This document shows positions 8,295 through 60,860 of a DNA stretch of 64,000 nt, piece after piece. Made by a program: the position numbers and the translations under genes. The notes under the pieces are model-generated. The model was not told where the DNA came from, made no database searches, and saw only the letters and a list, made by a program, of their open reading frames with translations. This DNA comes from an uncultured Planctomycetia bacterium (GTDB taxonomy: Bacteria; Omnitrophota; Gorgyraeia; Tantalellales; Tantalellaceae). The stretch spans positions 145,872-209,871 of the forward strand of contig CAYQUS010000002.1 in the NCBI GenBank assembly GCA_964421015.1. The letters are read 5' to 3'. How positions within the stretch are numbered: the stretch's first letter is position 1; each line of letters begins with the position of its first letter.

Positions 8295-8969
8295 ATGGAG
8301 AAGATAAATCTTGAGGCGTTCGTAAGGCCGGAAACCGGCAAAAGCGCCGCCAAACATGTCCGCAAGGAGGATATGGTCCCGGCGGTGGTATACAAGAACG
8401 GAGAGAAAGGTATGAGCGTTAAGGTTGGGCGAAAAGACCTTCTCAAGGCCCTGCACACCGAGGCCGGGCTCAATGCCATAATAACTCTGGATATTTCCGA
8501 CGGGTCCAAGACGGATAGCAGGACAGTTATCGTCAAAGACACGCAGATAGACCCCCTTACCGATAAGCTGATACACGCGGATTTTCACGAAATATCGCTT
8601 AAGGAAAAGATAACGGTAAATGTTCCCGTAGCGGTAAAGGGTGAGGCCGTAGGTGTCACCGAGGAGAAAGGCGTTTTCACCCAGACCTTGTGGGAGCTTG
8701 AGATAGAGTGTTTACCCACGGAAATACCCGAAAAGATAGAGGTTAACGTGGAAGCGCTCCGTATAGGCGACGCCATCCATGTCAAGGAGCTGTCTGTTCC
8801 GGCGGGAATAACCCTGCTTGACGATCCTGACCAGGTAGTAGCTTCGGTCCATCATCAGGAGGTCGAGAAGGTCGAAGAACCTCTTGAGGAGGGAGCTGTC
8901 GAGCCCGAGGTCATAAAGAAGGGTAAAGAGGAGACCGGCGAAGAAGAGGAAGAAGCCCCCAAGGAGTAG
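8295..8969 (+). CDS. rplY: 50S ribosomal protein L25 / general stress protein Ctc
   Basis: N-terminus LEAFVRPETGKSAAKHVRKEDMVPAVVY with an acidic C-terminal tail. Confidence 0.85.
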   Translation: MEKINLEAFVRPETGKSAAKHVRKEDMVPAVVYKNGEKGMSVKVGRKDLLKALHTEAGLNAIITLDISDGSKTDSRTVIVKDTQIDPLTDKLIHADFHEISLKEKITVNVPVAVKGEAVGVTEEKGVFTQTLWELEIECLPTEIPEKIEVNVEALRIGDAIHVKELSVPAGITLLDDPDQVVASVHHQEVEKVEEPLEEGAVEPEVIKKGKEETGEEEEEAPKE

Positions 8970-28798: not shown

Positions 28799-28831
28799 AA
28801 GTATCAACAAAAGAAAGGAAAAGTGGTAGAT

Positions 28832-29893
28832 ATGAAAAAGGAGTCTTTTGAGTTTTTCAAGAAACTTGCCGATGCCGTCAGCCCTTCGGGATTTGAGGAA
28901 GAGGCGGTAAAGATCTGGTCCGAAAGAGCCCGTGGTATTTCGGACAAGGTGGAAAGCGACGTTATGGGCAACTCTATAGCCACGCTTAACGGTGGAGGGA
29001 GCCCTAAGGTGATGGTGTCGGGGCATATAGACGAGATAGGGTTCATGGTGCAGTACATAAGCGATGAAGGGTACATATATTTTTCCACAATAGGCGGTAT
29101 AGACAGGCACGTTCTTCCTGGGCAGAGAGTTTGGATAAAGACCGGAAAGGGCATAGTTCTGGGAGTAATAGGAAAGAAACCCATACACCTTTTGGAAGAC
29201 GCCGAAAGGAGCAAAGTAGCAAAGCTTGAAGAGCTCTGGATAGATATAGGAGCGAAGGACGGGAAAGACGCTAAAAGCAAAGTGGAAATAGGAGATCCGG
29301 TGGTCTGCGCGGTAGGGCTTGAGCTTTTGAACAGCGACATAGCAGTCGGCCGCGGTTTTGACGATAAGGCGGGGGCTTTTGTGGTCAATGAAACCCTGAG
29401 CCTTCTTTCGGGAAAGAAACTTAAAGCCGCTTTTTACGGTGTAGCTTCGGTGCAGGAAGAGATAGGGCTAAGAGGTGCCAAGACGGCGGCTTATGGCATC
29501 TCTCCCGATATAGGTATAGCGATAGACGTTACTTTCGCCACGGATTTTCCGTCTATGGACAAAAGAAAATCCGGGAATGTGAAAATAGGTTCAGGGCCAG
29601 TAATAGCCAAGGGGCCTAATATCAACCCCAAAGTTTTTCATCTTTTAGTGGAAACGGCGAAAAAAGAGAAAATACCCTACCAGATAGAAGGCGTATCCCG
29701 GGCTACCGGAACAGACGCTAATGTTATACAGCTTACCAAAGCCGGTGTGGCTGCAGGGCTTATAAGCATTCCTTTAAGATATATGCATACACAGGTAGAA
29801 CTTGCCAGCCTGAAAGATCTGGAAAACACGGCAAAACTCCTAAGCGCGTTCGTAATGAAGCTGGACAAGGGCATAGACCTGATCCCCCGCTAA
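28832..29893 (+). CDS. M42-family aminopeptidase (FrvX/glutamyl aminopeptidase-like)
   Basis: HIDEIGFMV, GRGFDDKAG and metal-ligand motifs typical of M42 peptidases. Confidence 0.8.
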   Translation: MKKESFEFFKKLADAVSPSGFEEEAVKIWSERARGISDKVESDVMGNSIATLNGGGSPKVMVSGHIDEIGFMVQYISDEGYIYFSTIGGIDRHVLPGQRVWIKTGKGIVLGVIGKKPIHLLEDAERSKVAKLEELWIDIGAKDGKDAKSKVEIGDPVVCAVGLELLNSDIAVGRGFDDKAGAFVVNETLSLLSGKKLKAAFYGVASVQEEIGLRGAKTAAYGISPDIGIAIDVTFATDFPSMDKRKSGNVKIGSGPVIAKGPNINPKVFHLLVETAKKEKIPYQIEGVSRATGTDANVIQLTKAGVAAGLISIPLRYMHTQVELASLKDLENTAKLLSAFVMKLDKGIDLIPR

Positions 29894-29908: not shown

Positions 29909-29949
29909 CACATTAGTGCCAGGCACCATAGGTGCCTGGCACCAATGTG
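29909..29949. repeat. 41-bp near-perfect palindrome made of two 13-bp GGTGCCWGGCACC palindromes
   Basis: CACATTAGTGCCAGGCACC-AT-AGGTGCCTGGCACCAATGTG. Lies immediately upstream of the hydrolase promoter. Confidence 0.85.
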
Positions 29950-29956
29950 ACGGCAT

Positions 29957-29985
29957 TTGTTATTCACTCCCTGCAAGTGTATACT
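29957..29985 (+). promoter_or_regulatory. sigma70-like promoter (TTGTTA-17-TATACT) giving a leaderless or near-leaderless hydrolase mRNA
   Basis: -35 at 29957-62, -10 at 29980-85. The ATG follows 8 nt after the -10 with no SD. Confidence 0.45.
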
Positions 29986-29993
29986 TTACCCGT

Positions 29994-30827
29994 ATGACAG
30001 GCCTTAAATATAAAAAGTGGACAGTGGAAAGTCCCCGCGGGGCCTTAGTGCTTGTGCACGGTATGGGCGCTGGAACGGAGAGATGGGAAAGCCTTGCCGA
30101 ATACTTTCTTTCGAAAAATATCTCCTCATATGCTCTTTCTCTCCGTGGGTTCGACGGAACCGAAGGCGAGAAGGGGTATGTCGACAGTTTCCAGACGTAC
30201 CATTCCGACATAAAAAAACTTTATGAACTCGCCCGAAGAGAAGTTCCCACAGGTAAGATCTTTCTTCTAGGCGAAAGCATGGGGGCTTTAATAGCCTTTG
30301 ACCATGCCGCGCAAGGCGAGGGGCTTTTTGATGGATATATCCTTATTTCCCCGGCTTTCGGGAGCCGGCTTAAGTTCAATCCGCACGTGTATCTCTTTAT
30401 TCTTCTCTCGATGCTGTTCTTCCCTCGAAAACAGTTCAAAATGCCGTTTAATTCCAGGATGTGCACGAGTGACAGAGGAGAGATAGAGAAAATAGAAAAA
30501 GATCCGGCGGAACACCGGTATGCTACAGGTAGCCTTCTCCGGGAAATACTCAAAAAACAGGTGATGGCAAAAAAACTGGCTAAAAAAATAACTTCGCCGG
30601 TACTTTTTCTTTTATCCGAGGAAGACGAGTTAGCGGACCCCGCGCGGAGTGAGAAGGTTTTTGAAGTTTTAGGACACATTGGTGCCAGGCACCACAGGTG
30701 CCAGGCACCAAACAACAACCTTAAGAAGTATCCTGGGATGAAGCATGCGCTGTCTGTAGAGGCGGGGCGCGAGAGGGTTTTTGAGGATATTTATGAGTGG
30801 GGACAGAAGTTAGAAGGGAGAAAGTAG
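29994..30827 (+). CDS. alpha/beta-hydrolase (lysophospholipase/monoacylglycerol lipase-like)
   Basis: HGMGAGTERW and GESMGALIAF (GxSxG) motifs. The C-terminal region carries an in-frame palindromic repeat insertion encoding HIGARHHRCQAPNN. Confidence 0.75.
   Translation: MTGLKYKKWTVESPRGALVLVHGMGAGTERWESLAEYFLSKNISSYALSLRGFDGTEGEKGYVDSFQTYHSDIKKLYELARREVPTGKIFLLGESMGALIAFDHAAQGEGLFDGYILISPAFGSRLKFNPHVYLFILLSMLFFPRKQFKMPFNSRMCTSDRGEIEKIEKDPAEHRYATGSLLREILKKQVMAKKLAKKITSPVLFLLSEEDELADPARSEKVFEVLGHIGARHHRCQAPNNNLKKYPGMKHALSVEAGRERVFEDIYEWGQKLEGRK
30675..30709. repeat. second pair of GGTGCCAGGCACC 13-bp palindromes, inside the 3' end of the hydrolase CDS
   Basis: CACATTGGTGCCAGGCACC-ACA-GGTGCCAGGCACC, read in-frame as GARHHRCQAP. 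Confidence 0.85.
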
Positions 30828-30925
30828 AAAGGAGAAAGAGGAAAGGAGAAATGGGAAAGAGGAGAAAGGGGAAAGTGATAGGTTAAGGTTGAGGTTCAGG
30901 TTGAGAGAGAGGGGGAGTAGAGGGA
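30811..30925 (+). repeat. purine-rich (GGAGAAAGG)n + (AGGTTG)n intergenic repeat module, copy A
   Basis: AGAAGGGAGAAAGTAGAAAGGAGAAAGAGGAAAGGAGAAATGGGAAAGAGGAGAAAGGGGAAAGTGATAGGTTAAGGTTGAGGTTCAGGTTGAG. Its first ~17 nt lie inside the hydrolase CDS (stop at 30825-27). Confidence 0.8.
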
Positions 30926-30928
30926 ACC

Positions 30929-31049
30929 GTCATTCTGAGCCGTAGGCGAAGAATCTAGATCCTTCGGTCGCGTTGCTCCCTCAGGATGACAAGAGAAAGG
31001 GGACTCTCTCAGGATGACAAGTGAAAGGGGGCTCCCCCAGGATGACAAA
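30929..31049 (+). repeat. GTCATTCTGAGC...CTCAGGATGAC hairpin module followed by three tandem CAGGATGACAA units
   Basis: Inverted repeat GTCATTCTGAG / CTCAGGATGAC (30929-30990). CAGGATGACAA recurs at 30982, 31010 and 31038. Confidence 0.75.
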
Positions 31050-31134: not shown

Positions 31135-32613
31135 ATGAAGTATATACTTGCGATAGATCAGGGGACTACGGGGTCTCGGGCAGTGATTTACGACAGAAAG
31201 GGGTTTGAGGTTGCCAGTCATTACAACGAATTTAAGCAGTATTTTCCCCATCCTGGGTGGGTAGAGCATGACGCGGATGAAATATGGGAGAGTGTTAATA
31301 AAAGTATACAGAAAGTCCTGTCAAAGATCCCCTCTGAAAATATAGAAGCGATAGGAATAACCAATCAGCGAGAGACGGTGGTTCTTTGGGATAGGGCTAC
31401 GGGAAAACCGGTGACCAAGGCTATAGTCTGGCAGTGCAGAAGAACAGCCGATAGATGCGAAAAGATAAAGCGAAATAAAAAACTCCGGGAAATAATATTC
31501 CAAAAAACAGGACTTCCCGTAGACGCATATTTTTCGGCGAGCAAAATAGAGTGGCTTTTGAGAAGCCATCCTAATATAAGGAAAAAAGCCGATAGAGGCG
31601 ATATTGTTTTCGGCACGATGGATTCGTGGCTTCTCTGGAAACTTACAGGGGGAAAGGCTCATGCCACGGACCACACGAACGCTTCAAGGACAATGCTTTT
31701 TAATATAAACACTAAAAAGTGGGACAAAGAGCTTCTTCGTGTTTTTAATGTTCCGGAAGCGATGACGCCCGAAGTAAAGAAATCGTCGGGTGTTTTTGGT
31801 TACACTGAAAAAATAGGCTGGCTAAAAGCGGGGATCCCTATCTCCGGGATCGCTGGAGACCAGCAGGCGGCGCTTTTCGGCCAGGCATGTTTTAATAAAG
31901 GAGACATAAAGAACACTTACGGCACGGGATGTTTTATGCTTCTTAATTCCGGAAAGAAAAAACCTAAAGGTAAAAACGGGCTAATAATTACTTTGGGATG
32001 CGGAAAAACCGGGGAACCGGTTTATGTTCTTGAGGGGGCTATTTTCATAGCGGGAGCGGCGATACAATGGCTTAGGGATTATCTTGGCATATTGTCATCC
32101 TCGGCTGAGTCGAGAGAAATGGCCGAAAAAGTTAAAGATAACGGAGGGGTGTATTTTGTGCCGGCTCTTGTGGGGCTTGGAGCCCCGCACTGGAAAAGCG
32201 ACGCAAGAGGTCTTATAACCGGAATAACACGCGGAACAAAAAGAGAGCATATAGTCAGAGCCGCTATAGAGGCGATGTGCTATCAGACAAAAGACGTTCT
32301 TGATGTAATGAAAAAAGAGGCCGGCGTGAATGTAAAGTCTTTAAAAATAGACGGCGGCGCGGCGAAGAATGATTTTTTGTGCGCTTTTCAATCTGATATA
32401 CTCGGGATGGATGTTGTGAGGCCCAGAGTTACGGAAACAACTTCTTTAGGAGCGGCGTATTTGGCGGGGCTCGGGACAGGGTACTGGAAAAATACCGGGG
32501 AGATAAGAAAGTGTTGGAAAGCCGATAAGGTGTTCCAGCCGGCCATGAAGCCGGCGAAACGCGAAGCGCTTATCGATGGATGGGAAAAGGCGGTGGCGAG
32601 GGCCGTGTTGTAG
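31135..32613 (+). CDS. glpK: glycerol kinase
   Basis: ILAIDQGTTGSRAVIYD...; FGGY-family motifs throughout. Confidence 0.9.
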   Translation: MKYILAIDQGTTGSRAVIYDRKGFEVASHYNEFKQYFPHPGWVEHDADEIWESVNKSIQKVLSKIPSENIEAIGITNQRETVVLWDRATGKPVTKAIVWQCRRTADRCEKIKRNKKLREIIFQKTGLPVDAYFSASKIEWLLRSHPNIRKKADRGDIVFGTMDSWLLWKLTGGKAHATDHTNASRTMLFNINTKKWDKELLRVFNVPEAMTPEVKKSSGVFGYTEKIGWLKAGIPISGIAGDQQAALFGQACFNKGDIKNTYGTGCFMLLNSGKKKPKGKNGLIITLGCGKTGEPVYVLEGAIFIAGAAIQWLRDYLGILSSSAESREMAEKVKDNGGVYFVPALVGLGAPHWKSDARGLITGITRGTKREHIVRAAIEAMCYQTKDVLDVMKKEAGVNVKSLKIDGGAAKNDFLCAFQSDILGMDVVRPRVTETTSLGAAYLAGLGTGYWKNTGEIRKCWKADKVFQPAMKPAKREALIDGWEKAVARAVL

Positions 32614-32689
32614 AGAGAAGTAGAAAGAGGGAAGGAGAAAGTGGAAAAGGATAGGTTTAGGCCCAGGTTCAGGTTGAGCCGAAGGGGTG
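32614..32689 (+). repeat. purine-rich + AGGTTSAG repeat module, copy B (after glpK)
   Basis: AGAGAAGTAGAAAGAGGGAAGGAGAAAGTGGAAAAGGATAGGTTTAGGCCCAGGTTCAGGTTGAGCC. Confidence 0.75.
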
Positions 32690-32710: not shown

Positions 32711-32851
32711 CAGCAGATTTCCGATATTTCCGGAAGGGCGTTGGTCGACCGAGCGGGCACGGATTCCGAGGGAGAGCGAGGGAGAGCATCGAGCGAGATT
32801 TCCACGCCGGGGAAATCGAGCGTCCCTGAAGGGAATGTCGGAAATCTGCTG
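32711..32851 (-). repeat. solo MITE-like copy of the 55-kb repeat unit, bounded by 18-bp terminal inverted repeats
   Basis: CAGCAGATTTCCGATATT ... AATGTCGGAAATCTGCTG. The interior aligns in reverse orientation to 55090-55235 (GAGCGGGCACGGAT..GGAGAGCGAGGGAGA..CGAGCGAGATTT..GAAAATCGAGCGTCCCTGAAGGGAAT). Confidence 0.8.
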
Positions 32852-32876: not shown

Positions 32877-34322
32877 ATGATGAGACAGGAAAACATGAAA
32901 TATGACGTTGTGATAATAGGCGCGGGGGTTACGGGATGCGCGATAGCTCGGGAGCTTTCCAAATACGAGCTCTCTATAGCTGTTCTTGAAAAAGAAGAAG
33001 AGCCGGCTTTCGGAGTTTCGAAATCCAATAGCGGGATAATACATCCCGGCACGCAGAATTCTCCGGATTCCCTGAAAGGGAAGCTTTGCGTAAGAGGTAA
33101 TATTTTGACGCGCAAGATGTCTCGCGACCTGGGAGTTGAGGTAAAAGAAGTAGGGGAGCTGATTGTCGCTTTTGGGGAAGATGAGATGAAAGAGCTTAAG
33201 AGAATAAAGACTGATGCCGAAAAGCTTCGTGTTCCGGGGCTCAGGATAGTCGGGAAAGCCTGGCTTAAAAAAAGAGAACCGAACCTTAGCGCGGAGATAG
33301 TCGCGGCGCTCTATTCCCCGACAGCATGCATAATAAGCCCTTACCGGTGGGCATACGCCTTGGCTGAAAACGCTGTTCGTAACGGCGCAGAAATGCGCTT
33401 AAACACTGAAGTCACGGGAATAAAGAAAGAAAGAGCCGGCGGAGTTTTCGTGATATCCTCAGGTTCCGGCATTTTTGAGGCCAGATACGTCATTAACGCA
33501 GCCGGGCTTTTTGCCGACAAAGTTTCCGCTATGGCCGGAGTGGATAGTTTTAAGATAACGCCCAGAAAAGGCGAAGAATTCCTTCTTGATAAAAAAAGAG
33601 AATATATCACGAGACATCTTATTTTCCCTCTCCCGTCAGAAAAGTCAAAGGGGGTTCTTGTAATAAAAACTTCCGACGGAAATCCCATGATAGGGCCTAC
33701 CGCCGAAGATACAGATGACAAGAACGATCTAACTACGACAAGCGAAGGTCTTGAAAAGGTGGTCGCCTCCGTGCAGAAAATGGTGCCGGCAATAGACCCT
33801 GCCGACATAATAGCTTATTTCGCGGGACTCAGGCCTGTTGCCGGAAAGGATTTTATAATTAGGCATGAGGAAAAACTTCCGGGGTTTGTAAATGTAGCGG
33901 GGATACAGTCGCCGGGGCTTACGGCATCTCCGGCAATAGCTGAAATGGTGCGGGATATCCTTAAAGCGAACGGACTTCTTTTAAAGAAAAAGAAAAACTT
34001 TCATTCGAAACGAAAAAGAACTAAACATCTATTTGATATGGCCATAAAGAACATAAAGAAAGCTGTAAAAGAAGACCCGGATTACGGGGACATAGTCTGC
34101 CGGTGCGAGACTGTATCTAAAAAGGAGATAGTGGATGCTATTGCCAGGGGAGCCAGGACGCTTGACGGCATAAAGTTCCGAACTCGCGCTCAGGCAGGCA
34201 GATGCCACGGAAGTTTTTGTACGGCCCGGATACTACGCATTCTGGCGGAGGAGCGCAATGTGCCGTTTAAGGAAATAACTAAGCGGGGGAAAGGGTCGGA
34301 GGTTGTGAAGGGGGAGAAATAG
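32877..34322 (+). CDS. glpA: FAD-dependent glycerol-3-phosphate dehydrogenase/oxidase-like subunit with C-terminal BFD-like [2Fe-2S] domain
   Basis: VVIIGAGVTGCAIAREL dinucleotide fold. C-terminal CRCE..C..C BFD-like motif. Start could alternatively be the ATG at 32895. Confidence 0.75.
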   Translation: MMRQENMKYDVVIIGAGVTGCAIARELSKYELSIAVLEKEEEPAFGVSKSNSGIIHPGTQNSPDSLKGKLCVRGNILTRKMSRDLGVEVKEVGELIVAFGEDEMKELKRIKTDAEKLRVPGLRIVGKAWLKKREPNLSAEIVAALYSPTACIISPYRWAYALAENAVRNGAEMRLNTEVTGIKKERAGGVFVISSGSGIFEARYVINAAGLFADKVSAMAGVDSFKITPRKGEEFLLDKKREYITRHLIFPLPSEKSKGVLVIKTSDGNPMIGPTAEDTDDKNDLTTTSEGLEKVVASVQKMVPAIDPADIIAYFAGLRPVAGKDFIIRHEEKLPGFVNVAGIQSPGLTASPAIAEMVRDILKANGLLLKKKKNFHSKRKRTKHLFDMAIKNIKKAVKEDPDYGDIVCRCETVSKKEIVDAIARGARTLDGIKFRTRAQAGRCHGSFCTARILRILAEERNVPFKEITKRGKGSEVVKGEK

Positions 34323-34510
34323 AAAGAAAAGAGAAGATAGAAGATAGAAAGGAGAAAGAGGAAAGGAGAAAGGGGAAAGAGGAGAAAGGAAAAGGAGAAG
34401 TGAGAAAGCGATAGGTTAAGGTTGAGGTTTAGGTTGAGGTGTTGGGACGTCATTCTGAGCCAAAGGCGAAGAATCTAGATCCTTCGTTCGCTTTGCTCAC
34501 TCAGGATGAC
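34323..34510 (+). repeat. purine-rich + (AGGTTG)n module plus GTCATTCTGAG hairpin module, copy C (after glpA-like)
   Basis: ..GGAGAAAGAGGAAAGGAGAAAGGGGAAAGAGGAGAAAGG..GATAGGTTAAGGTTGAGGTTTAGGTTGAGG.. then CGTCATTCTGAGCCAAAGGCGAAGAATCTAGATCCTTCG..CTCACTCAGGATGACAG. Confidence 0.8.
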
Positions 34511-34588
34511 AGAGAGGGGTTCAACCGGGATTATAGTGCGTTGTTTTTTGGTGCCAGGCGCCGAAGAGAGCAGATATCTTGGAGAAAA

Positions 34589-42120: not shown

Positions 42121-42403
42121 GACCATAATCGAGATAATAGTGAACAATCATCCGGGCGTGATGTCCCATATAACGGGGCTTTTCGCGAGGAGGGCTTACA
42201 ATCTTGAGGGGATACTGTGCGGCGAAATAGAGGACGGGTCCCGGAGCAGGATGTATCTTCTGGTGGATGAGGACGAGAGGCTGGAACAGATAATAAAACA
42301 GATAGAAAAACTTTATGACGTTATTACAGTTAATGCAAGGGGTGACAGGGACCATACCATATTCAAAAAACTGGATAAGGCTATGGAGATTTTTGGGGGA
42401 TAG
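42104..42403 (+). CDS. ilvN: acetolactate synthase small (ACT-domain) subunit, short form
   Basis: ACT-domain sequence IIEIIVNNHPGVMSHITGLFARRAYNLEGI. 99 aa. Overlaps the end of ilvB. Confidence 0.75.
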   Translation: MKEGSKTIIEIIVNNHPGVMSHITGLFARRAYNLEGILCGEIEDGSRSRMYLLVDEDERLEQIIKQIEKLYDVITVNARGDRDHTIFKKLDKAMEIFGG

Positions 42404-42488
42404 ATTTGGCTAACCGTAAACTGAAGTACTCAAGGTAGAACTTTTTCAAAGTCCTACCTTGAGGCCAAATCTATGGCGTGCCAGAGAG
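42395..42488. repeat. 94-bp direct repeat copy 1 (copy 2 at 42602-42695), containing a long hairpin and the 3'-terminal 15 nt of tRNA-Arg
   Basis: GGGGGATAGATTTGGCTAACCGTAAACTGAAGTACTCAAGGTAGAACTTTTTCAAAGTCCTACCTTGAGGCCAAATCTATGGCGTGCCAGAGAG occurs twice, 207 bp apart. Confidence 0.85.
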
Positions 42489-42680
42489 ATTGTTTCGGGC
42501 TATGATCCTCCTCTTCGGCGGATCATTTGTGGCGGTGTTGTTGGTGGCCGGCATCACCGATCCACCCTTGATTTACTCGCTTTGCTCGTAAATCAAACCA
42601 GGGGGGATAGATTTGGCTAACCGTAAACTGAAGTACTCAAGGTAGAACTTTTTCAAAGTCCTACCTTGAGGCCAAATCTA

Positions 42681-42759
42681 TGGCGTGCCAGAGAGGATTC
42701 GAACCTCCAACCAACGGCTTCGTAGGCCGCTACTCTATCCAGTTGAGCTACTGGCACGC
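42681..42759 (-). tRNA. tRNA-Arg (anticodon ACG)
   Basis: The reverse complement folds into a cloverleaf: acceptor GCGTGCC, anticodon loop CTACGAA, T-arm GGTTCGAATCC, CCA encoded. Confidence 0.8.
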
Positions 42760-42819: not shown

Positions 42820-42880
42820 TTGAGGGGAAGACCGGTAAAAAATAAGGAGAAAGGTAGAATAGGGAGGGAGGAAATGACAG
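42820..42880 (+). repeat. purine-rich + AGGTTAAAGTTGAG module, copy D
   Basis: AATAAGGAGAAAGGTAGAATAGGGAGGGAGGAAATGACAGGTTAAAGTTGAGCC. Confidence 0.65.
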
Positions 42881-42916
42881 GTTAAAGTTGAGCCGACCGG
42901 CCGGGCATTGTATAAT
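42881..42916 (+). promoter_or_regulatory. sigma70-like promoter TTGAGC-17-TATAAT for tadA
   Basis: The -35 is contributed by the AGGTTRAG repeat module. -10 at 42911-16. Confidence 0.4.
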
Positions 42917-42933: not shown

Positions 42934-43389
42934 GTGAAACTGCGCGAAATTTATATGGGGCAGGCTTTAAGAGAAGCTGTTAAGGCCTATGAGGCGGACG
43001 AGGTCCCGGTCGGGGCCGTTATAGTTCACGAAGGCGAAATTATCGCAAGGGCGCATAATCAGATAAAGCTGCTTAAGGACCCTACGGCTCATGCCGAGAT
43101 GATAGCGATAACCCAGGCGGCGGCTTATCTTTCAAATGAACGGCTTACCGGCTGTGAACTTTACGTTACTCTAGAGCCCTGCTCTATGTGTGTGGGAGCG
43201 GCTGTTCTGGGGCGTTTAAGCAGTATAGTTTTCGGGGCTTCGGATCCTAAAACCGGCGCGTGCGGAAGTGTGGTGGACCTGGCCAAACCGGGTCTATTTA
43301 ACCACAATATTGAGATATCGGGCGGAGTAATGGAAAATGAGTGCCGGGTTCTTTTGCAAAAATTCTTCGCGGGAAAAAGGGGGAAGTAG
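42934..43389 (+). CDS. tadA: tRNA-specific adenosine deaminase
   Basis: HAEMIAI and PCSMCVGA zinc-binding CDA motifs. 151 aa. GTG start. Confidence 0.85.
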   Translation: MKLREIYMGQALREAVKAYEADEVPVGAVIVHEGEIIARAHNQIKLLKDPTAHAEMIAITQAAAYLSNERLTGCELYVTLEPCSMCVGAAVLGRLSSIVFGASDPKTGACGSVVDLAKPGLFNHNIEISGGVMENECRVLLQKFFAGKRGK

Positions 43390-43432
43390 GAAGCAGTAAG
43401 GAGGAAGGGTCAGGTTAAGGTTGAGTATACCA
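43390..43432 (+). repeat. short purine-rich + AGGTTAAGGTTGAG module, copy E (after tadA)
   Basis: GGAAGCAGTAAGGAGGAAGGGTCAGGTTAAGGTTGAGT. Confidence 0.6.
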
Positions 43433-49445: not shown

Positions 49446-50053
49446 AAAAAGATTTTCTGAAAGGGCTTTGGAAAGAGAATCCCATTTTCGTACAGGTCCT
49501 CGGGACATGTCCCACCCTGGCAGTAACTACAAAAGCAGTGTTCGGTCTTTCCATGGGGATAGCCACAACGTTCGTTCTGATCTCATCAAGCTTAGTTGTA
49601 TCTCTCATAAGGAAAGTCGTTCCGCCGCAGGTGAGAATACCCATGTTTACCGTTATAATAGCCACTTTTGTCACCGCCGCCGATTATTTCCTTAAGGCCA
49701 ATTTTTATGAGATAAGCAAGGCCCTGGGGCCGTATGTTCCTCTTATAGTAGTGAACTGCATAATACTCGGCAGAGCCGAAGCTTTTGCTTCCAAGAACGG
49801 GCCGGTAAGGTCGGTGCTGGACGCTCTCGGAATGGGGCTAGGGTTTACCTCGGCGCTACTGGTCCTGGGCAGCTGCCGTGAGATACTCGGTTCCGGGGCT
49901 ATTTTCGGATTGAGGGTTATGCCGCAGGGGTTCACCAACTGGATAGTGATGATACTTCCCGCGGGAGCGTTCATTACTTTCGGACTTCTGGTAGGGGTTT
50001 TTAACACGGTTGACGGAATGATCAAGAAGAGGGAAGAGGTTAAGGTTAAGTAG
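49442..50053 (+). CDS. rnfE: Rnf complex subunit E
   Basis: RnfA/RnfE-family 6-TM protein (NPIFVQVLGTCP). Position is after rnfG. Confidence 0.8.
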   Translation: MKKDFLKGLWKENPIFVQVLGTCPTLAVTTKAVFGLSMGIATTFVLISSSLVVSLIRKVVPPQVRIPMFTVIIATFVTAADYFLKANFYEISKALGPYVPLIVVNCIILGRAEAFASKNGPVRSVLDALGMGLGFTSALLVLGSCREILGSGAIFGLRVMPQGFTNWIVMILPAGAFITFGLLVGVFNTVDGMIKKREEVKVK

Positions 50054-50174
50054 GAAGAGAGGAGAAATAAGTAGTAAGTAGTAAGGAATAAGGAGTAAGG
50101 AGTAAGGAGAAAAGAGAAAAGAAGGTTGAGGCAGTGAGGGGATCAAGGTTCAGGTTGAGGTTTAGAGGGGAGCG
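50054..50174 (+). repeat. purine-rich (AGTAAGGAG)n + AGGTTCAGGTTGAGGTT module, copy F, inside the rnf operon between rnfE and rnfA
   Basis: GGAAGAGAGGAGAAATAAGTAGTAAGTAGTAAGGAATAAGGAGTAAGGAGTAAGGAGAAAAGAGAAAAGAAGGTTGAGG..GATCAAGGTTCAGGTTGAGGTTTAGAGGGGAGCG directly before the rnfA ATG. Confidence 0.8.
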
Positions 50175-54867: not shown

Positions 54868-54942
54868 CGCGGGGTGGAGCAGAGGTAGCTCGTGAGGCTC
54901 ATAACCTCAAGGTCGAGGGTTCGATTCCCTCCCCCGCAACCA
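54868..54942 (+). tRNA. initiator tRNA-Met (anticodon CAU)
   Basis: Starts CGCGGGG with C1:A72 mismatch. Near-identical to the E. coli tRNA-fMet acceptor, D and T arms. Anticodon loop CTCATAA. CCA encoded. Confidence 0.8.
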
Positions 54943-55027: not shown

Positions 55028-55583
55028 TCTTGTCATTCTGAGAATCTATAACTTTCGGTTTCCGCGGCTGAAGTACCGATGTGGCTGTCAAATGCCCGAT
55101 ATTCCCTTCAGGGACGCTCGATTTTCCCGGCGAGAAAATCTCGCTCGGAGGTCTCCCTCGCTCTCCCTTAGGGCTTTTGCCCTAGGGATCCGTGCCCGCT
55201 CGGGAGACCAACGCCCTTCCGGGAACACCGGGCATTTGCCTGAAAAAGACGCCTTTTTCACGGCCGAGGTGGCTTGTCATTCTGAGAATCTATAACTTTC
55301 GGTTTCCGCGGCTGAAGTACCGATGTGGCTGTCAAATGCCCGATATTCCCTTCAGGGACGCTCGATTTTCCCGGCGAGAAAATCTCGCTCGGAGGTCTCC
55401 CTCGCTCTCCCTTAGGGCTTTTGCCCTAGGGATCCGTGCCCGCTCGGGAGACCAACGCCCTTCCGGGAACATCGGGCATTTGCCCGAAGAAGACGCCTTT
55501 TTCACAGCCGAGGTGTCTTGTCATTCTGAGAATCTATAACTTTCGGTTTCCGCGGCTGAAGTTCCGAGGCGGCTGTCAAATGC
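55028..55583 (+). repeat. tandem array of about 2.3 copies of a ~245-bp structured repeat unit
   Basis: Units at 55028-55272, 55273-55516 and a partial one at 55517-55583 are near-identical. Each contains the GTCATTCTGAGAATCTA module and a TIR-like pair CAAATGCCCGATATTCC / GGAACACCGGGCATTTG. Confidence 0.85.
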
Positions 55584-60288: not shown

Positions 60289-60737
60289 CGATAGGGTCAG
60301 ACCACGGGGGGTTCGCGCTTAAAGAGTTTCTGTCGGGGAAACTTAAAGAATGGGGCTACAAGGTATACGACGCGGGCACTGATTCTCCCGAACCCTGCGA
60401 TTATCCCGTCACAGGGTTCAAATGCGCCTCCAGGGTATCGGAGAAAAAAGAACCGAGGGGCATACTTATCTGCCGGACGGGAGTCGGCATGGCGGTTATA
60501 GCCAATAAACTCCCCGGAGTAAGGGCCGGGGTCTGCGGCAAAGTTTCGGAAGCCGTTTCTGCCAGGGAACACAACGACATAAACCTGCTGGTGCTTGCGG
60601 CCGACAGGATATCTAGAGACGACGCGGAGGCGACGGTAAAAGCGTGGCTCGAGACCCCGGCGCTCAAGGGCCGGCACGCCAAAAGAGTGCGGCTCATCAA
60701 GGAGTATGAGAAGAAAGTGTTCAGGGGGAAGAAATAA
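60273..60737 (+). CDS. rpiB: ribose-5-phosphate isomerase B
   Basis: [15 protein letters not shown] and RpiB/LacAB-family sequence. Confidence 0.85.
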   Translation: MAGKIAIGSDHGGFALKEFLSGKLKEWGYKVYDAGTDSPEPCDYPVTGFKCASRVSEKKEPRGILICRTGVGMAVIANKLPGVRAGVCGKVSEAVSAREHNDINLLVLAADRISRDDAEATVKAWLETPALKGRHAKRVRLIKEYEKKVFRGKK

Positions 60738-60860
60738 GGAGAAAGGAGTAAGGAGAAAGGAGTAAGGAGTAAGAGGAAAAGAAGGGTAAGACAGTGAAAC
60801 TGCCTAGTCGAACTGTCCCCGGCAATAGGGAGGGGACTAAGGTTGAGGTTAAGGGGAAGG
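60738..60860 (+). repeat. purine-rich (AGGAGTAAGGAG)n + AAGGTTGAGGTTAAGG module, copy G, between rpiB and glyA
   Basis: AAGGAGAAAGGAGTAAGGAGAAAGGAGTAAGGAGTAAGAGGAAAAGAAGGGTAAG...GGACTAAGGTTGAGGTTAAGGGGAAGGAG directly before the glyA ATG. Confidence 0.8.

What the first reader, a model, noticed from the sequence alone, without database searches (positions are those of the whole stretch)
29909..30709. Paired 13-bp GGTGCCWGGCACC palindromes bracket an alpha/beta-hydrolase gene and are inserted in-frame into its 3' end
Two copies of a perfect 13-bp palindrome form a 41-bp super-palindrome at 29909-29949. This lies just upstream of a TTGTTA-17-TATACT promoter, and the ATG follows with no SD. Two more copies lie 760 bp downstream at 30675-30709. 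There they are translated in-frame as HIGARHHRCQAPNN, replacing the usual short loop before the conserved C-terminal His region of lysophospholipase-like hydrolases. Symmetric sites on both sides of one gene resemble an operator pair for a dimeric repressor that could loop the DNA. An alternative is a short palindromic mobile element that has landed twice, once in-frame and tolerated. Both readings are unusual.
Basis: seen in the sequence. Interest (0 to 1): 0.5.

Follow-up and report, generated by a model that had tools for sequence, protein, structure and literature searches.

The report
REP-type mobile palindrome inside hydrolase gene
The paired palindromes are two copies of a small hairpin-forming repeat (REP/REPIN type) of the kind spread by a dedicated single-strand DNA transposase; one copy sits between genes and the other landed in-frame in a lipase-like gene, where it is tolerated as a floppy 12-residue surface loop.

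Summary
The exact 13-mer occurs 3 times in 64 kb against 0 expected.

The in-gene copy is a true 36-nt in-frame insertion encoding HIGARHHRCQAP. Distant orthologues and a solved monoglyceride lipase lack it. It maps to the only low-confidence loop of an otherwise confident model.

The operator/looping reading is not supported.
- A relative with the same promoter lacks the upstream site.
- The spacing to the promoter differs between relatives.
- No regulator gene lies within 5 kb.
- The same palindrome sits beside unrelated genes elsewhere.

In other lineages from at least four phyla, the core GTGCCWGGCAC flanks genes for REP-associated tyrosine transposases (RAYT). In 9 of 10 RAYT loci the motif lies within 400 nt. 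One of these RAYTs passes NCBI's equivalog cut-off and is flanked by the same CACATT-extended version found here.

A second in-frame case exists in a Caldisericota radical-SAM gene next to a RAYT gene.

No RAYT lies in this window, and genome-wide copy number could not be measured.

Intragenic REPs are already documented, so this is a new member of a known kind. Interest is moderate.

The parts
29909..29949 (.). Extragenic REPIN-like doublet. Two inverted 19-nt REP units (CACATT + GGTGCCWGGCACC) are separated by ATA. It starts 15 nt after the stop codon of the M42 peptidase gene and ends 7 nt before the -35 hexamer of the hydrolase promoter.
   Evidence: Sequence. The 13-mers lie at 29915-29927 (1 mismatch) and 29931-29943. 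It forms a 19-bp hairpin as ssDNA, -22 to -23.7 kcal/mol, z = -8.3 and -10.7. Orthologous copies exist in L001 and L003, and L003 carries a compensatory double change that keeps a perfect 20-bp stem.
30675..30711 (+). Intragenic REPIN-like doublet. The 36 nt at 30675-30710 are 12 in-frame codons (HIGARHHRCQAP) inserted in the hydrolase gene.
   Evidence: Sequence. Distant orthologues lack it and so does PDB 6EIC. AlphaFold2 gives pLDDT below 50 only at residues 229-236. It has no stop codon in any of the six frames.
29994..30827 (+). Host gene: a monoacylglycerol-lipase-like alpha/beta hydrolase of 277 aa, with the conserved residues Ser95, Asp211 and His251 (presumed catalytic triad) retained.
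   Evidence: Pfam Hydrolase_4, E = 1.4e-45. S95, D211 and H251 are invariant in alignment A1. The best solved relatives are monoglyceride lipases, E = 1e-19. Model pLDDT is 90.3.
29957..29985 (+). Promoter-like site TTGTTA-17-TATACT of the hydrolase gene. The ATG lies 8 nt after the -10 hexamer, so the mRNA is probably leaderless.
   Evidence: Found. The sequence GTGTATACTTTACCC is conserved directly before the ATG in L003 and L006.
34550..34562 (.). Degenerate single 13-mer (GGTGCCAGGCGCC) upstream of the Pyr_redox_2 gene. It is probably the decayed remnant of the doublet that L003 carries at the orthologous position.
   Evidence: The L003 doublet lies at 8758-8804.
28823..29893 (+). Upstream M42 aminopeptidase gene. 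The extragenic doublet lies in its 3' flank.
   Evidence: Pfam Peptidase_M42, E = 2.2e-92. ORF coordinates.

Best explanation
Both sites are copies of a REP/REPIN-type miniature element.

Anatomy:
- The unit is about 19 nt: CACATT followed by the palindrome GGTGCCWGGCACC.
- Two units in inverted orientation with a 3-nt spacer give a 41-nt element.
- As single-stranded DNA or RNA it folds into a hairpin of about 19 bp.

How such elements spread: a single-copy HUH/Y1 transposase (RAYT) recognises the hairpin in single-stranded DNA and cuts and rejoins it. This step is inferred from established knowledge of RAYT and IS200/IS605 enzymes.

The extragenic copy lies in the usual REP position, just downstream of a gene (M42 peptidase).

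The in-gene copy:
- It inserted into the hydrolase coding sequence as exactly 12 codons.
- It has no stop codon in any frame.
- It falls in the loop between the last helix before strand beta8 and the His-bearing strand. It therefore became a disordered surface loop and was retained.
- The insertion is old, because relatives with 75-77% identical protein share it.
- The site is a hot spot, because relatives carry nested or different palindromic insertions there.

Shown here: the sequence and its significance, the insertion status, the loop location, and the RAYT association of this motif in other lineages.

Inferred: that a RAYT of this organism moved these copies, and that the bracketing of one gene reflects local clustering rather than function.
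For: 1. Insertion status.
- The segment is absent from 16 orthologues at or below 69% identity and present in variable form in four close relatives.
- PDB 6EIC shows a 10-residue gap at this place.

2. Loop location.
- The AlphaFold2 model has mean pLDDT 90.3.
- Only residues 229-236 fall below 50. They lie between helix 216-228 and strand 242-246.

3. RAYT link.
- The ORF in L142 matches Pfam Y1_Tnp, E = 3.8e-15.
- It scores 90.9 bits against NCBIfam REP_Tyr_transpos (equivalog), above the cut-off of 80.
- It is flanked by CCCACTTTGGTGCCAGGTACC and CCCACTTTGGTGCCTGGCACCAATGTGGG.
- A profile of 123 RAYT homologues finds RAYT ORFs in 10 fetched loci. Nine of them have GTGCCWGGCAC (up to 1 mismatch) within 400 nt, mostly on both sides.
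- Named hosts are Gammaproteobacteria (L020), Phycisphaerales (L030), Thermoleophilia (L050) and Caldisericota (L183, L184).

4. REPIN behaviour.
- L003 keeps a perfect 20-bp stem through a compensatory change, GGTGACAGGCACC / GGTGCCTGTCACC.
- L133 has a compensated A-T pair.
- L143 has a singlet where L177 has a doublet, with the same right flank.

5. Gain and loss.
- L006 lacks the upstream copy and has a different palindrome at the in-gene site.
- L001 has a 66-nt nested insertion between the two 13-mers.
- L003 and L006 share a further 69-nt insertion.

6. Second in-frame case.
- A radical-SAM gene next to a RAYT gene carries RSVTLVPGTSVTL.
- Orthologues with 88% and 81% identity (P0189, P0190) lack it; L183, which encodes P0189, is 91% identical at DNA level to L174 and has a 36-nt indel there.

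7. Precedent.
- Intragenic REPs and the RAYT-REP linkage are described in PMC3733652, PMC3116915 and PMC5581495.
Against: - No RAYT gene lies in the 64-kb window.
- Copy number in this genome is unknown. The window holds only two doublets and one remnant, all inside one glycerol/lipid gene cluster.
- In relative L003 all five doublets also lie in that cluster and none lies in the preceding 4.4 kb.
- The classical GTAG tag of REPs is absent. The flanks read CGTA, CGTC or TGTA.
- In the in-gene copy both centres are A, so the long hairpin has a central mismatch.
- The in-gene copy is better conserved than the rest of the gene. Nucleotide identity is 0.92 and 0.97 against 0.75 and 0.77. Third positions match at 10/12 and 11/12 against 53-56%, Fisher p = 0.03 and 0.01. 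A purely neutral passenger does not predict this.
Confidence: 0.8

Rival explanations
1. Operator sites for a dimeric regulator of the glycerol/lipid cluster. Sites upstream of and inside the hydrolase gene would cooperate by DNA looping. From memory, this resembles E. coli GlpR, which has operators inside glpD.
For: - The sites have perfect dyad symmetry.
- Every copy in the window (29909, 30675, 34550) lies in the cluster hydrolase - glpK - DAO/BFD - Pyr_redox_2 - DUF1667.
- All five doublets in L003 lie in the same cluster.
- The in-gene copy is conserved above the synonymous background.
Against: - L006 has the same promoter but no upstream palindrome.
- The distance from the palindrome to the -10 hexamer is 30 nt in the window and 45 nt in L003.
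- Spacers between the two 13-mers vary: 3, 12, 21 and 69 nt.
- No transcription-factor gene lies within about 5 kb.
- The same CACATT-extended palindrome lies beside NadC-like, CDF-transporter and radical-SAM genes.
- It also flanks RAYT genes in several phyla.
Confidence: 0.06
2. An exapted REP with an RNA- or DNA-level role. The upstream hairpin would act as a 3' end stabiliser or terminator for the M42 peptidase transcript. The in-gene hairpin would modulate translation or mRNA decay of the hydrolase. This would add to a REP origin, not replace it.
For: - The hairpin starts 15 nt after the M42 stop codon.
- The L001 version is followed by TTTTTGTT.
- Nucleotide conservation of the in-gene copy exceeds that of the rest of the gene.
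- REPs are mostly found downstream of ORFs and are thought to be transcribed (PMC3733652).
Against: - No T-run follows the hairpin in the window, and the terminator scan found none there.
- L006 lacks the upstream copy.
- The excess conservation rests on only 12 codons. It could also come from gene conversion or from re-insertion at a hot spot.
Confidence: 0.12
3. A chance palindrome, or an assembly or sequencing artefact.
For: None found.
Against: - The shuffle expectation is 0.
- The same elements appear at orthologous positions in independent assemblies from different samples: L001/L002, L003/L004/L005, and P0001.
Confidence: 0.01

Closest known systems
REP / REPIN elements mobilised by RAYT transposases (Bertels & Rainey 2011, PMC3116915; Bertels et al. 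2017, PMC5581495)
   Same: - It is a short palindromic unit.
- It forms doublets of two inverted units that fold into one long hairpin.
- Most copies lie just downstream of genes.
- The same motif flanks single Y1_Tnp/RAYT genes.
- Compensatory changes keep the long stem intact.
   Different: - It has no GTAG tag.
- The core is a perfect 13-nt palindrome with a single central W.
- The core is nearly identical in lineages of very different phyla and G+C content (0.37-0.72), whereas classical REP sequences are lineage-specific.
- No RAYT lies in the window, and copy number in this genome is unknown.
Intragenic REPs and Rickettsia palindromic elements (RPE) (Di Nocera et al. 2013, PMC3733652)
   Same: - It is a palindromic repeat inserted in-frame in a protein-coding gene.
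- It is translated as an extra peptide segment and does not destroy the protein.
- Insertions recur at about the same site in related genes.
   Different: - The sequence family and the hosts differ (Omnitrophota, Caldisericota).
- The hosts here are an alpha/beta hydrolase and a radical-SAM enzyme, not the replication and repair genes stressed in that paper.
- That paper says CGTC-type REPs, which include RPE-4 and RPE-6, lack a dedicated transposase. This motif is RAYT-flanked.
CGTC-tagged REP superfamily (PMC3733652)
   Same: Some copies carry CGTC or TGTC directly before the stem. Examples are the bottom strand of the window's upstream copy (CCGTCACATTGG), L174, and the high-GC family with GTGTCACATTGG.
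   Different: - The tag is inconsistent: CGTA, TGTA, AAAC and CTT also occur.
- The stem is longer than the 8-9 bp described for that superfamily.
- The loop does not match the described 4-5 nt.
- There is no CCA tail.
GlpR-type operator arrays with intragenic operators (E. coli glpD; recalled from memory, not checked here)
   Same: Dyad-symmetric sites lie upstream of and inside a gene of a glycerol-metabolism cluster.
   Different: No conserved position, no regulator gene nearby, variable spacing, and the motif also occurs outside glp clusters and around transposase genes.

Membership tests
REP/REPIN-RAYT system | Short (about 20-40 nt) palindromic unit able to form a stem-loop | tested here: met
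   The unit is 19 nt and the doublet 41 nt. ssDNA folding gives -16 to -24 kcal/mol, with z between -5.8 and -10.7.
REP/REPIN-RAYT system | Two REP units in inverted orientation with a short spacer, folding as one long hairpin (REPIN) | tested here: met
   The upstream copy has centres A and T inverted, a 3-nt spacer and a 19-bp stem with one mismatch. L003 and L133 have perfect stems through compensatory changes. The in-gene copy has A at both centres, so it carries one central mismatch.
REP/REPIN-RAYT system | The same repeat flanks a single-copy RAYT (Y1/HUH transposase) gene | tested here: inconclusive
   This is met in other lineages. Nine of 10 RAYT loci have the core within 400 nt. L142 passes NCBIfam NF047646 and carries the CACATT-extended form. 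No RAYT lies in the window, and the rest of this genome could not be read.
REP/REPIN-RAYT system | Many copies per genome, mostly extragenic | not testable with these tools
   Only 64 kb of the genome is available, holding 2 doublets and 1 remnant. Relative L003 has 5 doublets in 9.5 kb. Caldisericota L184 has 7 singlets in 17.5 kb.
REP/REPIN-RAYT system | Conserved unpaired GTAG tetranucleotide at one end (classical groups) | tested here: not met
   The flanks read CGTA, CGTC, TGTA or GTGTC, and no GTAG is seen. The tag defines the classical groups only, not every RAYT-associated repeat (PMC3733652 describes RAYTs flanked by other inverted repeats).
Intragenic REP / RPE-like in-frame insertion | Repeat lies inside an ORF in-frame, is absent from orthologues, and the host protein's essential residues are intact | tested here: met
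   Supported by alignment A1, the codon alignment, the gap against 6EIC, invariant S95/D211/H251 and the disordered loop in the model.
Transcription-factor operator pair | Conserved presence and position relative to the promoter in orthologous loci | tested here: not met
   L006 has the same promoter without the site. In L003 the site lies 15 nt further from the -10 hexamer.
Transcription-factor operator pair | Sites restricted to a coherent regulon, with a cognate regulator gene | tested here: not met
   No regulator gene lies within about 5 kb. The motif lies beside unrelated genes and RAYT genes in other lineages. Within this window and L003 it is confined to the glp cluster, so this lineage itself remains untested genome-wide.
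Intrinsic terminator | G+C-rich hairpin directly followed by a T-run | tested here: not met
   No terminator-like site was called at 29909-29960. Only the L001 copy is followed by TTTTTGTT.
MITE (TIR element with target-site duplication) | Terminal inverted repeats plus a direct target duplication | tested here: inconclusive
   No duplication is visible at either window copy. The filled versus empty comparison of L174 and L183 shows a 36-nt indel with GTGTGAC remaining at the empty site, and the boundaries are ambiguous.

The most novel reading that the evidence does not exclude
GGTGCCWGGCACC may be the conserved recognition hairpin of one widespread RAYT clade. If so, it would define a third, pan-bacterial REP superfamily beside the GTAG and CGTC ones. 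It is seen here in Omnitrophota, Caldisericota, Actinomycetota, Planctomycetota, Pseudomonadota and probably more.

Because the core has no stop codon in any of the six frames, it could be captured repeatedly as coding loops, appearing as peptides such as VPGT, GARH/GAWH and CQAP/CLAP. In-gene copies would then be kept at the nucleotide level by selection or by gene conversion, rather than drifting as neutral passengers.
Probability: 0.3. Interest if true: 0.55.

Novelty: new member of a known kind. Interest (0 to 1): 0.38.

Why it matters
- It extends REP/RAYT biology to poorly known phyla (Omnitrophota, Caldisericota).
- It gives a clean example of a mobile hairpin becoming part of an enzyme's sequence. 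The example includes a dated series of gain, nesting and replacement at one loop across relatives.
- Such elements create false N-terminal extensions. Examples are the 'MPGT...' start of the 303-aa ORF at 29916 and of P0002, and the glpK start called at 5605 in L003.
- They also create spurious variable segments in protein alignments.
- The near-identity of the core across phyla, if confirmed, would point to a conserved transposase-hairpin recognition code worth testing.

Tried and rejected
- An exact look-up of the window's glycerol kinase found nothing on record, so the source contig could not be extended.
It gave a cross-phylum sample but no census, and no Omnitrophota genome among the 80 rows shown.
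- Two RAYT homologues on long contigs (P0067, P0075) came back without DNA.
- Rfam at gathering thresholds found only four tRNAs, so the hairpins match no curated RNA family.
- Full-text searches for the motif strings found no bacterial paper.
- The intrinsic-terminator reading is rejected for the window copy.
- Membership in the CGTC-tagged superfamily was considered and left inconclusive.
- Several low-GC loci (L127, L132/L165, L166) have the 25-mer 60-130 nt downstream of ORFs that look like IS4-type transposases. I did not establish whether the palindrome is the end of the insertion sequence or its target.
- A conserved one-sided flank (C..CTTTTGTA before CACATT) might be a target site. 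It is not conserved at the in-gene copy of L003, so I did not build on it.

Full report
**1. Observation**

The sequence is as described, with one correction.
- At 29909-29949 the window reads CACATTAGTGCCAGGCACC-ATA-GGTGCCTGGCACCAATGTG.
- At 30675-30711 it reads CACATTGGTGCCAGGCACC-ACA-GGTGCCAGGCACCAA.
- The first 13-mer has one mismatch (AGTGCC...), so the 41-nt super-palindrome carries one A.C mismatch.

The motif is far beyond chance.
- The exact 13-mer occurs 3 times against 0.00 expected.
- With up to 2 mismatches there are 6 sites against 0.79 expected. These include a degenerate singlet at 34550-34562 upstream of a Pyr_redox_2 gene.

The two full copies share more than the 13-mers. The CACATT flank and the 3-nt spacer are common to both, so they are copies of one element of about 37-41 nt.

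As single-stranded DNA both fold into long hairpins, with z-scores from -5.8 to -10.7.

The promoter-like site TTGTTA-17-TATACT lies at 29957-29985. The ATG at 29994 follows 8 nt after the -10 hexamer, so the mRNA is probably leaderless. The -10 region and its distance to the ATG are conserved in relatives.

**2. The host gene and the insertion**

The ORF 29994-30827 is a 277-aa alpha/beta hydrolase.
- It matches Pfam Hydrolase_4 at E = 1.4e-45.
- Its closest solved relatives are monoglyceride lipases.

Sixteen orthologues at 42-69% identity have a short loop where the window protein has GHIGARHHRCQAPNN. Ser95, Asp211 and His251 are invariant across the alignment. M. tuberculosis MGL (6EIC) aligns with a 10-residue gap at exactly this place.

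The AlphaFold2 model is confident overall, with mean pLDDT 90.3. Residues 229-236 are the only stretch below 50, and they lie between helix 216-228 and strand 242-246, which leads to the conserved His.

The 36 nt at 30675-30710 are therefore a genuine in-frame insertion that forms a disordered loop. The in-gene copy is open in all six reading frames.

**3. Relatives show a dynamic hot spot**

The lineage is Candidatus Omnitrophota. HPN73569.1 falls in the 90% cluster of P0001, which is 99% identical to the window protein.

DNA of three relatives was compared by codon alignment.

| Locus | Protein identity to window | Upstream doublet | State of the in-gene site |
|---|---|---|---|
| L001 | 77% | present | same doublet, plus a 66-nt nested insertion between the two 13-mers that contains another palindrome (GGTTCCTG-GTA-CAGGAACC) |
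| L003 | 75% | present | same doublet, plus a further 69-nt insertion just upstream of it |
| L006 | 73% | absent, although the promoter is the same | shares the 69-nt insertion; in place of the doublet it has GGGGACATGTACC-TTC-GGTACATGTCCCC |

The distribution of these insertions does not follow the similarity of the N-termini. The window and L006 share MTGLKYK, while L001 and L003 share MT.TIKFRKW. This points to repeated gain and loss.

L003 also carries doublets in every intergenic gap of the cluster: before the hydrolase, glpK, the DAO/BFD gene and the next gene. Their spacers are 3, 12 and 21 nt.

In L003 the upstream copy reads GGTGACAGGCACC...GGTGCCTGTCACC. Neither 13-mer is a palindrome any more, yet the 20-bp long stem is perfect. 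So it is the long hairpin that is maintained, not the individual 13-mers.

**4. What the palindrome is**

*Metagenome scan.* A scan for CACATTRGTGCCWGGCACC returned 54 loci.
- Several look like the window's lineage, with G+C of 0.46-0.52 and, in L148, the same AGGTTGAGGTT tracts.
- These carry the singlet or the doublet beside unrelated genes, including NadC-like, CDF-transporter and other genes.
- L143 has a singlet where L177 has a doublet, with the same right flank.

*A RAYT flanked by the motif.* L142 holds an ORF flanked on both sides by the motif.
- The ORF matches Pfam Y1_Tnp at E = 3.8e-15.
- It scores 90.9 bits against NCBIfam REP-associated tyrosine transposase (equivalog), above the cut-off of 80.
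- Its downstream repeat is CCCACTTTGGTGCCTGGCACCAATGTGGG, nearly the window's element.

- The core is invariant.
- The flanks are lineage-specific and usually extend the palindrome.

*RAYT census.* A profile built from 123 RAYT homologues was searched against all fetched DNA.
- It found RAYT-like ORFs in 10 loci.
- Nine of these have the core within 400 nt, mostly on both sides.
- Examples are L050 (Thermoleophilia, with a doublet on each side), L020 (Gammaproteobacteria), L030 (Phycisphaerales), L182, L183 and L184.
- The window has none.

A repeat that flanks a single RAYT gene is the hallmark of REP/REPIN-RAYT systems (PMC3116915, PMC5581495).

**5. A second in-frame case**

In Caldisericota loci (L174, L183, L184) a 289-aa RAYT gene lies directly upstream of a radical-SAM gene.
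- One REP overlaps the RAYT C-terminus (...YFTLVPGTSVK*).
- Another lies in-frame inside the radical-SAM gene (RSVTLVPGTSVTL).
- That segment is absent from orthologues with 88% and 81% identity (P0189, P0190).
- At DNA level it is a 36-nt indel.
- L184 has seven such palindromes in 17.5 kb.

In-frame capture of this REP type is therefore recurrent.

**6. Why the operator reading fails**

- Presence is not conserved, because L006 lacks the upstream site.
- Position is not conserved, with 30 nt against 45 nt to the -10 hexamer.
- Spacers vary from 3 to 69 nt.
- No regulator gene lies within about 5 kb.
- The motif is found beside unrelated genes and around transposase genes.

One point remains in its favour. 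In the window and in L003 every copy lies in the glycerol/lipid cluster. With only 64 kb and 9.5 kb of sequence this cannot be separated from the local clustering typical of REPs. I give this reading about 6%.

**7. Unresolved points**

The in-gene copy is more conserved than the rest of the gene.

| Comparison | Nucleotide identity, in-gene copy | Nucleotide identity, rest of gene | Third positions same, in-gene copy | Third positions same, rest of gene | Fisher p |
|---|---|---|---|---|---|
| Window vs L003 | 0.92 | 0.75 | 10/12 | 53% | 0.03 |
| Window vs L001 | 0.97 | 0.77 | 11/12 | 56% | 0.01 |

This may reflect a functional hairpin, gene conversion among REP copies, or re-insertion at a hot spot. 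The sample is only 12 codons.

Three further gaps remain.
- The classical GTAG tag is absent.
- Some copies carry CGTC or TGTC before the stem, which recalls the CGTC superfamily of Di Nocera et al. However, stem length, loop and tail do not fit that family.
- Whether this organism has a RAYT, and how many copies its genome holds, could not be tested.

**8. Comparison with what is known, and verdict**

Intragenic, translated REPs are documented, including the Rickettsia palindromic elements (PMC3733652). So are REPIN doublets and their RAYT transposases.

The finding is therefore a new member of a known kind, in little-studied phyla. It has an unusually well-resolved history at one protein loop.

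The most novel reading still open is that this core marks a pan-bacterial REP superfamily tied to one RAYT clade. Full-text searches for the motif found no bacterial description.

Interest is 0.38.

Noticed in passing
window 30802-30914, 32612-32687, 34322-34447, 42834-42894, 43378-43427, 50026-50174, 60715-60797: Many intergenic gaps begin, right after the stop codon, with a purine-only tract of (AGGAGAAAG)-like repeats. A hexamer-periodic tract (AGGTTNAGGTTNAGG) follows. The same mosaic occurs in relatives L003 and L148. No Rfam family matches.
   Followed up: partly
window 30928-30991 and 34448-34511; also 30975-31045: A 64-nt palindromic repeat begins with CGTC (CGTCATTCTGAGCC...CTCAGGATGACA) and occurs in two copies 92% identical. 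Three further tandem copies of the ...CAGGATGACA arm follow. It may be a CGTC-tagged REP of the kind described in PMC3733652.
   Followed up: no
window 55029-55583 and 32713-32848: A 244-nt unit is repeated in tandem about 2.3 times (98-100% identical), close downstream of tRNA-Met (54868-54942). An inverted partial copy, 83-88% complementary, lies between glpK and the DAO gene.
   Followed up: no
window 42395-42488 and 42602-42695: Two identical 94-nt copies lie 207 nt apart. Each contains its own 35-nt hairpin. The second copy overlaps the end of tRNA-Arg (42681-42757, minus strand), which may be an integration scar.
   Followed up: no
window 1-64000: The plus strand has a strong and nearly uniform purine excess (GC skew about +0.1 to +0.24, AT skew mostly +0.1 to +0.25). 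Most long ORFs are on the plus strand.
   Followed up: no
window 29957-29996; L003 4490-4520; L006 395-420: The hydrolase promoter's -10 region (GTGTATACTTTACCC) is conserved and ends 6-8 nt before the ATG in three lineages. This implies a leaderless mRNA.
   Followed up: partly
genome-scan loci L007-L126: Pairs of GTGCCWGGCAC are common in very different phyla, including Chloroflexota, Actinomycetota, Planctomycetota, Bacillaceae, Gammaproteobacteria and Acidobacteriota. Their flanks are lineage-specific, for example ACGTGCCAGGCACTTCnnAAGTGCCTGGCACGT in Chloroflexota.
   Followed up: partly
L127 3489-3507, L132 2363-2381, L165 4455-4473, L166 140-158, L176 6121-6139: In low-GC contigs (some from gut or rumen samples) the 25-mer CACATTGGTGCCWGGCACCAATG lies 60-130 nt beyond the 3' end of ORFs that look like IS4-type transposases. 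It is often preceded by TGAC..TAAGTTGAC. It may be the end of an insertion sequence or its preferred target.
   Followed up: no
L128, L134, L136, L146, L153, L155, L157, L162 (metagenome Ga0265798): A high-GC organism (0.63-0.70) carries many copies of a 55-nt palindrome built on the same 25-mer: CGGCCGAGCCCGTGTCACATTGGTGCCWGGCACCAATGTGACACGGGCTCGGCCG.
   Followed up: no
window 29916-29993; L001 992-1039; L003 5605-5662: Gene callers and ORF lists start ORFs inside the palindrome, at GTG CCA GGC ACC read as 'MPGT'. This gives false N-terminal extensions of the hydrolase (303-aa ORF, and P0002) and of glpK in L003.
   Followed up: yes
L181 2189-2199 and 2930-2960; L003 5187-5200; L006 1087-1100 and 1160-1190: Related palindromes have A/T in place of G/C at the third and ninth positions of the 11-mer core (GTACCWGGTAC, GTACCSGGTAC). 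They flank another RAYT homologue (L181, 61% identical to the L142 protein) and appear in the extra insertions in the hydrolase of L003 and L006. This suggests sister REP families.
   Followed up: partly
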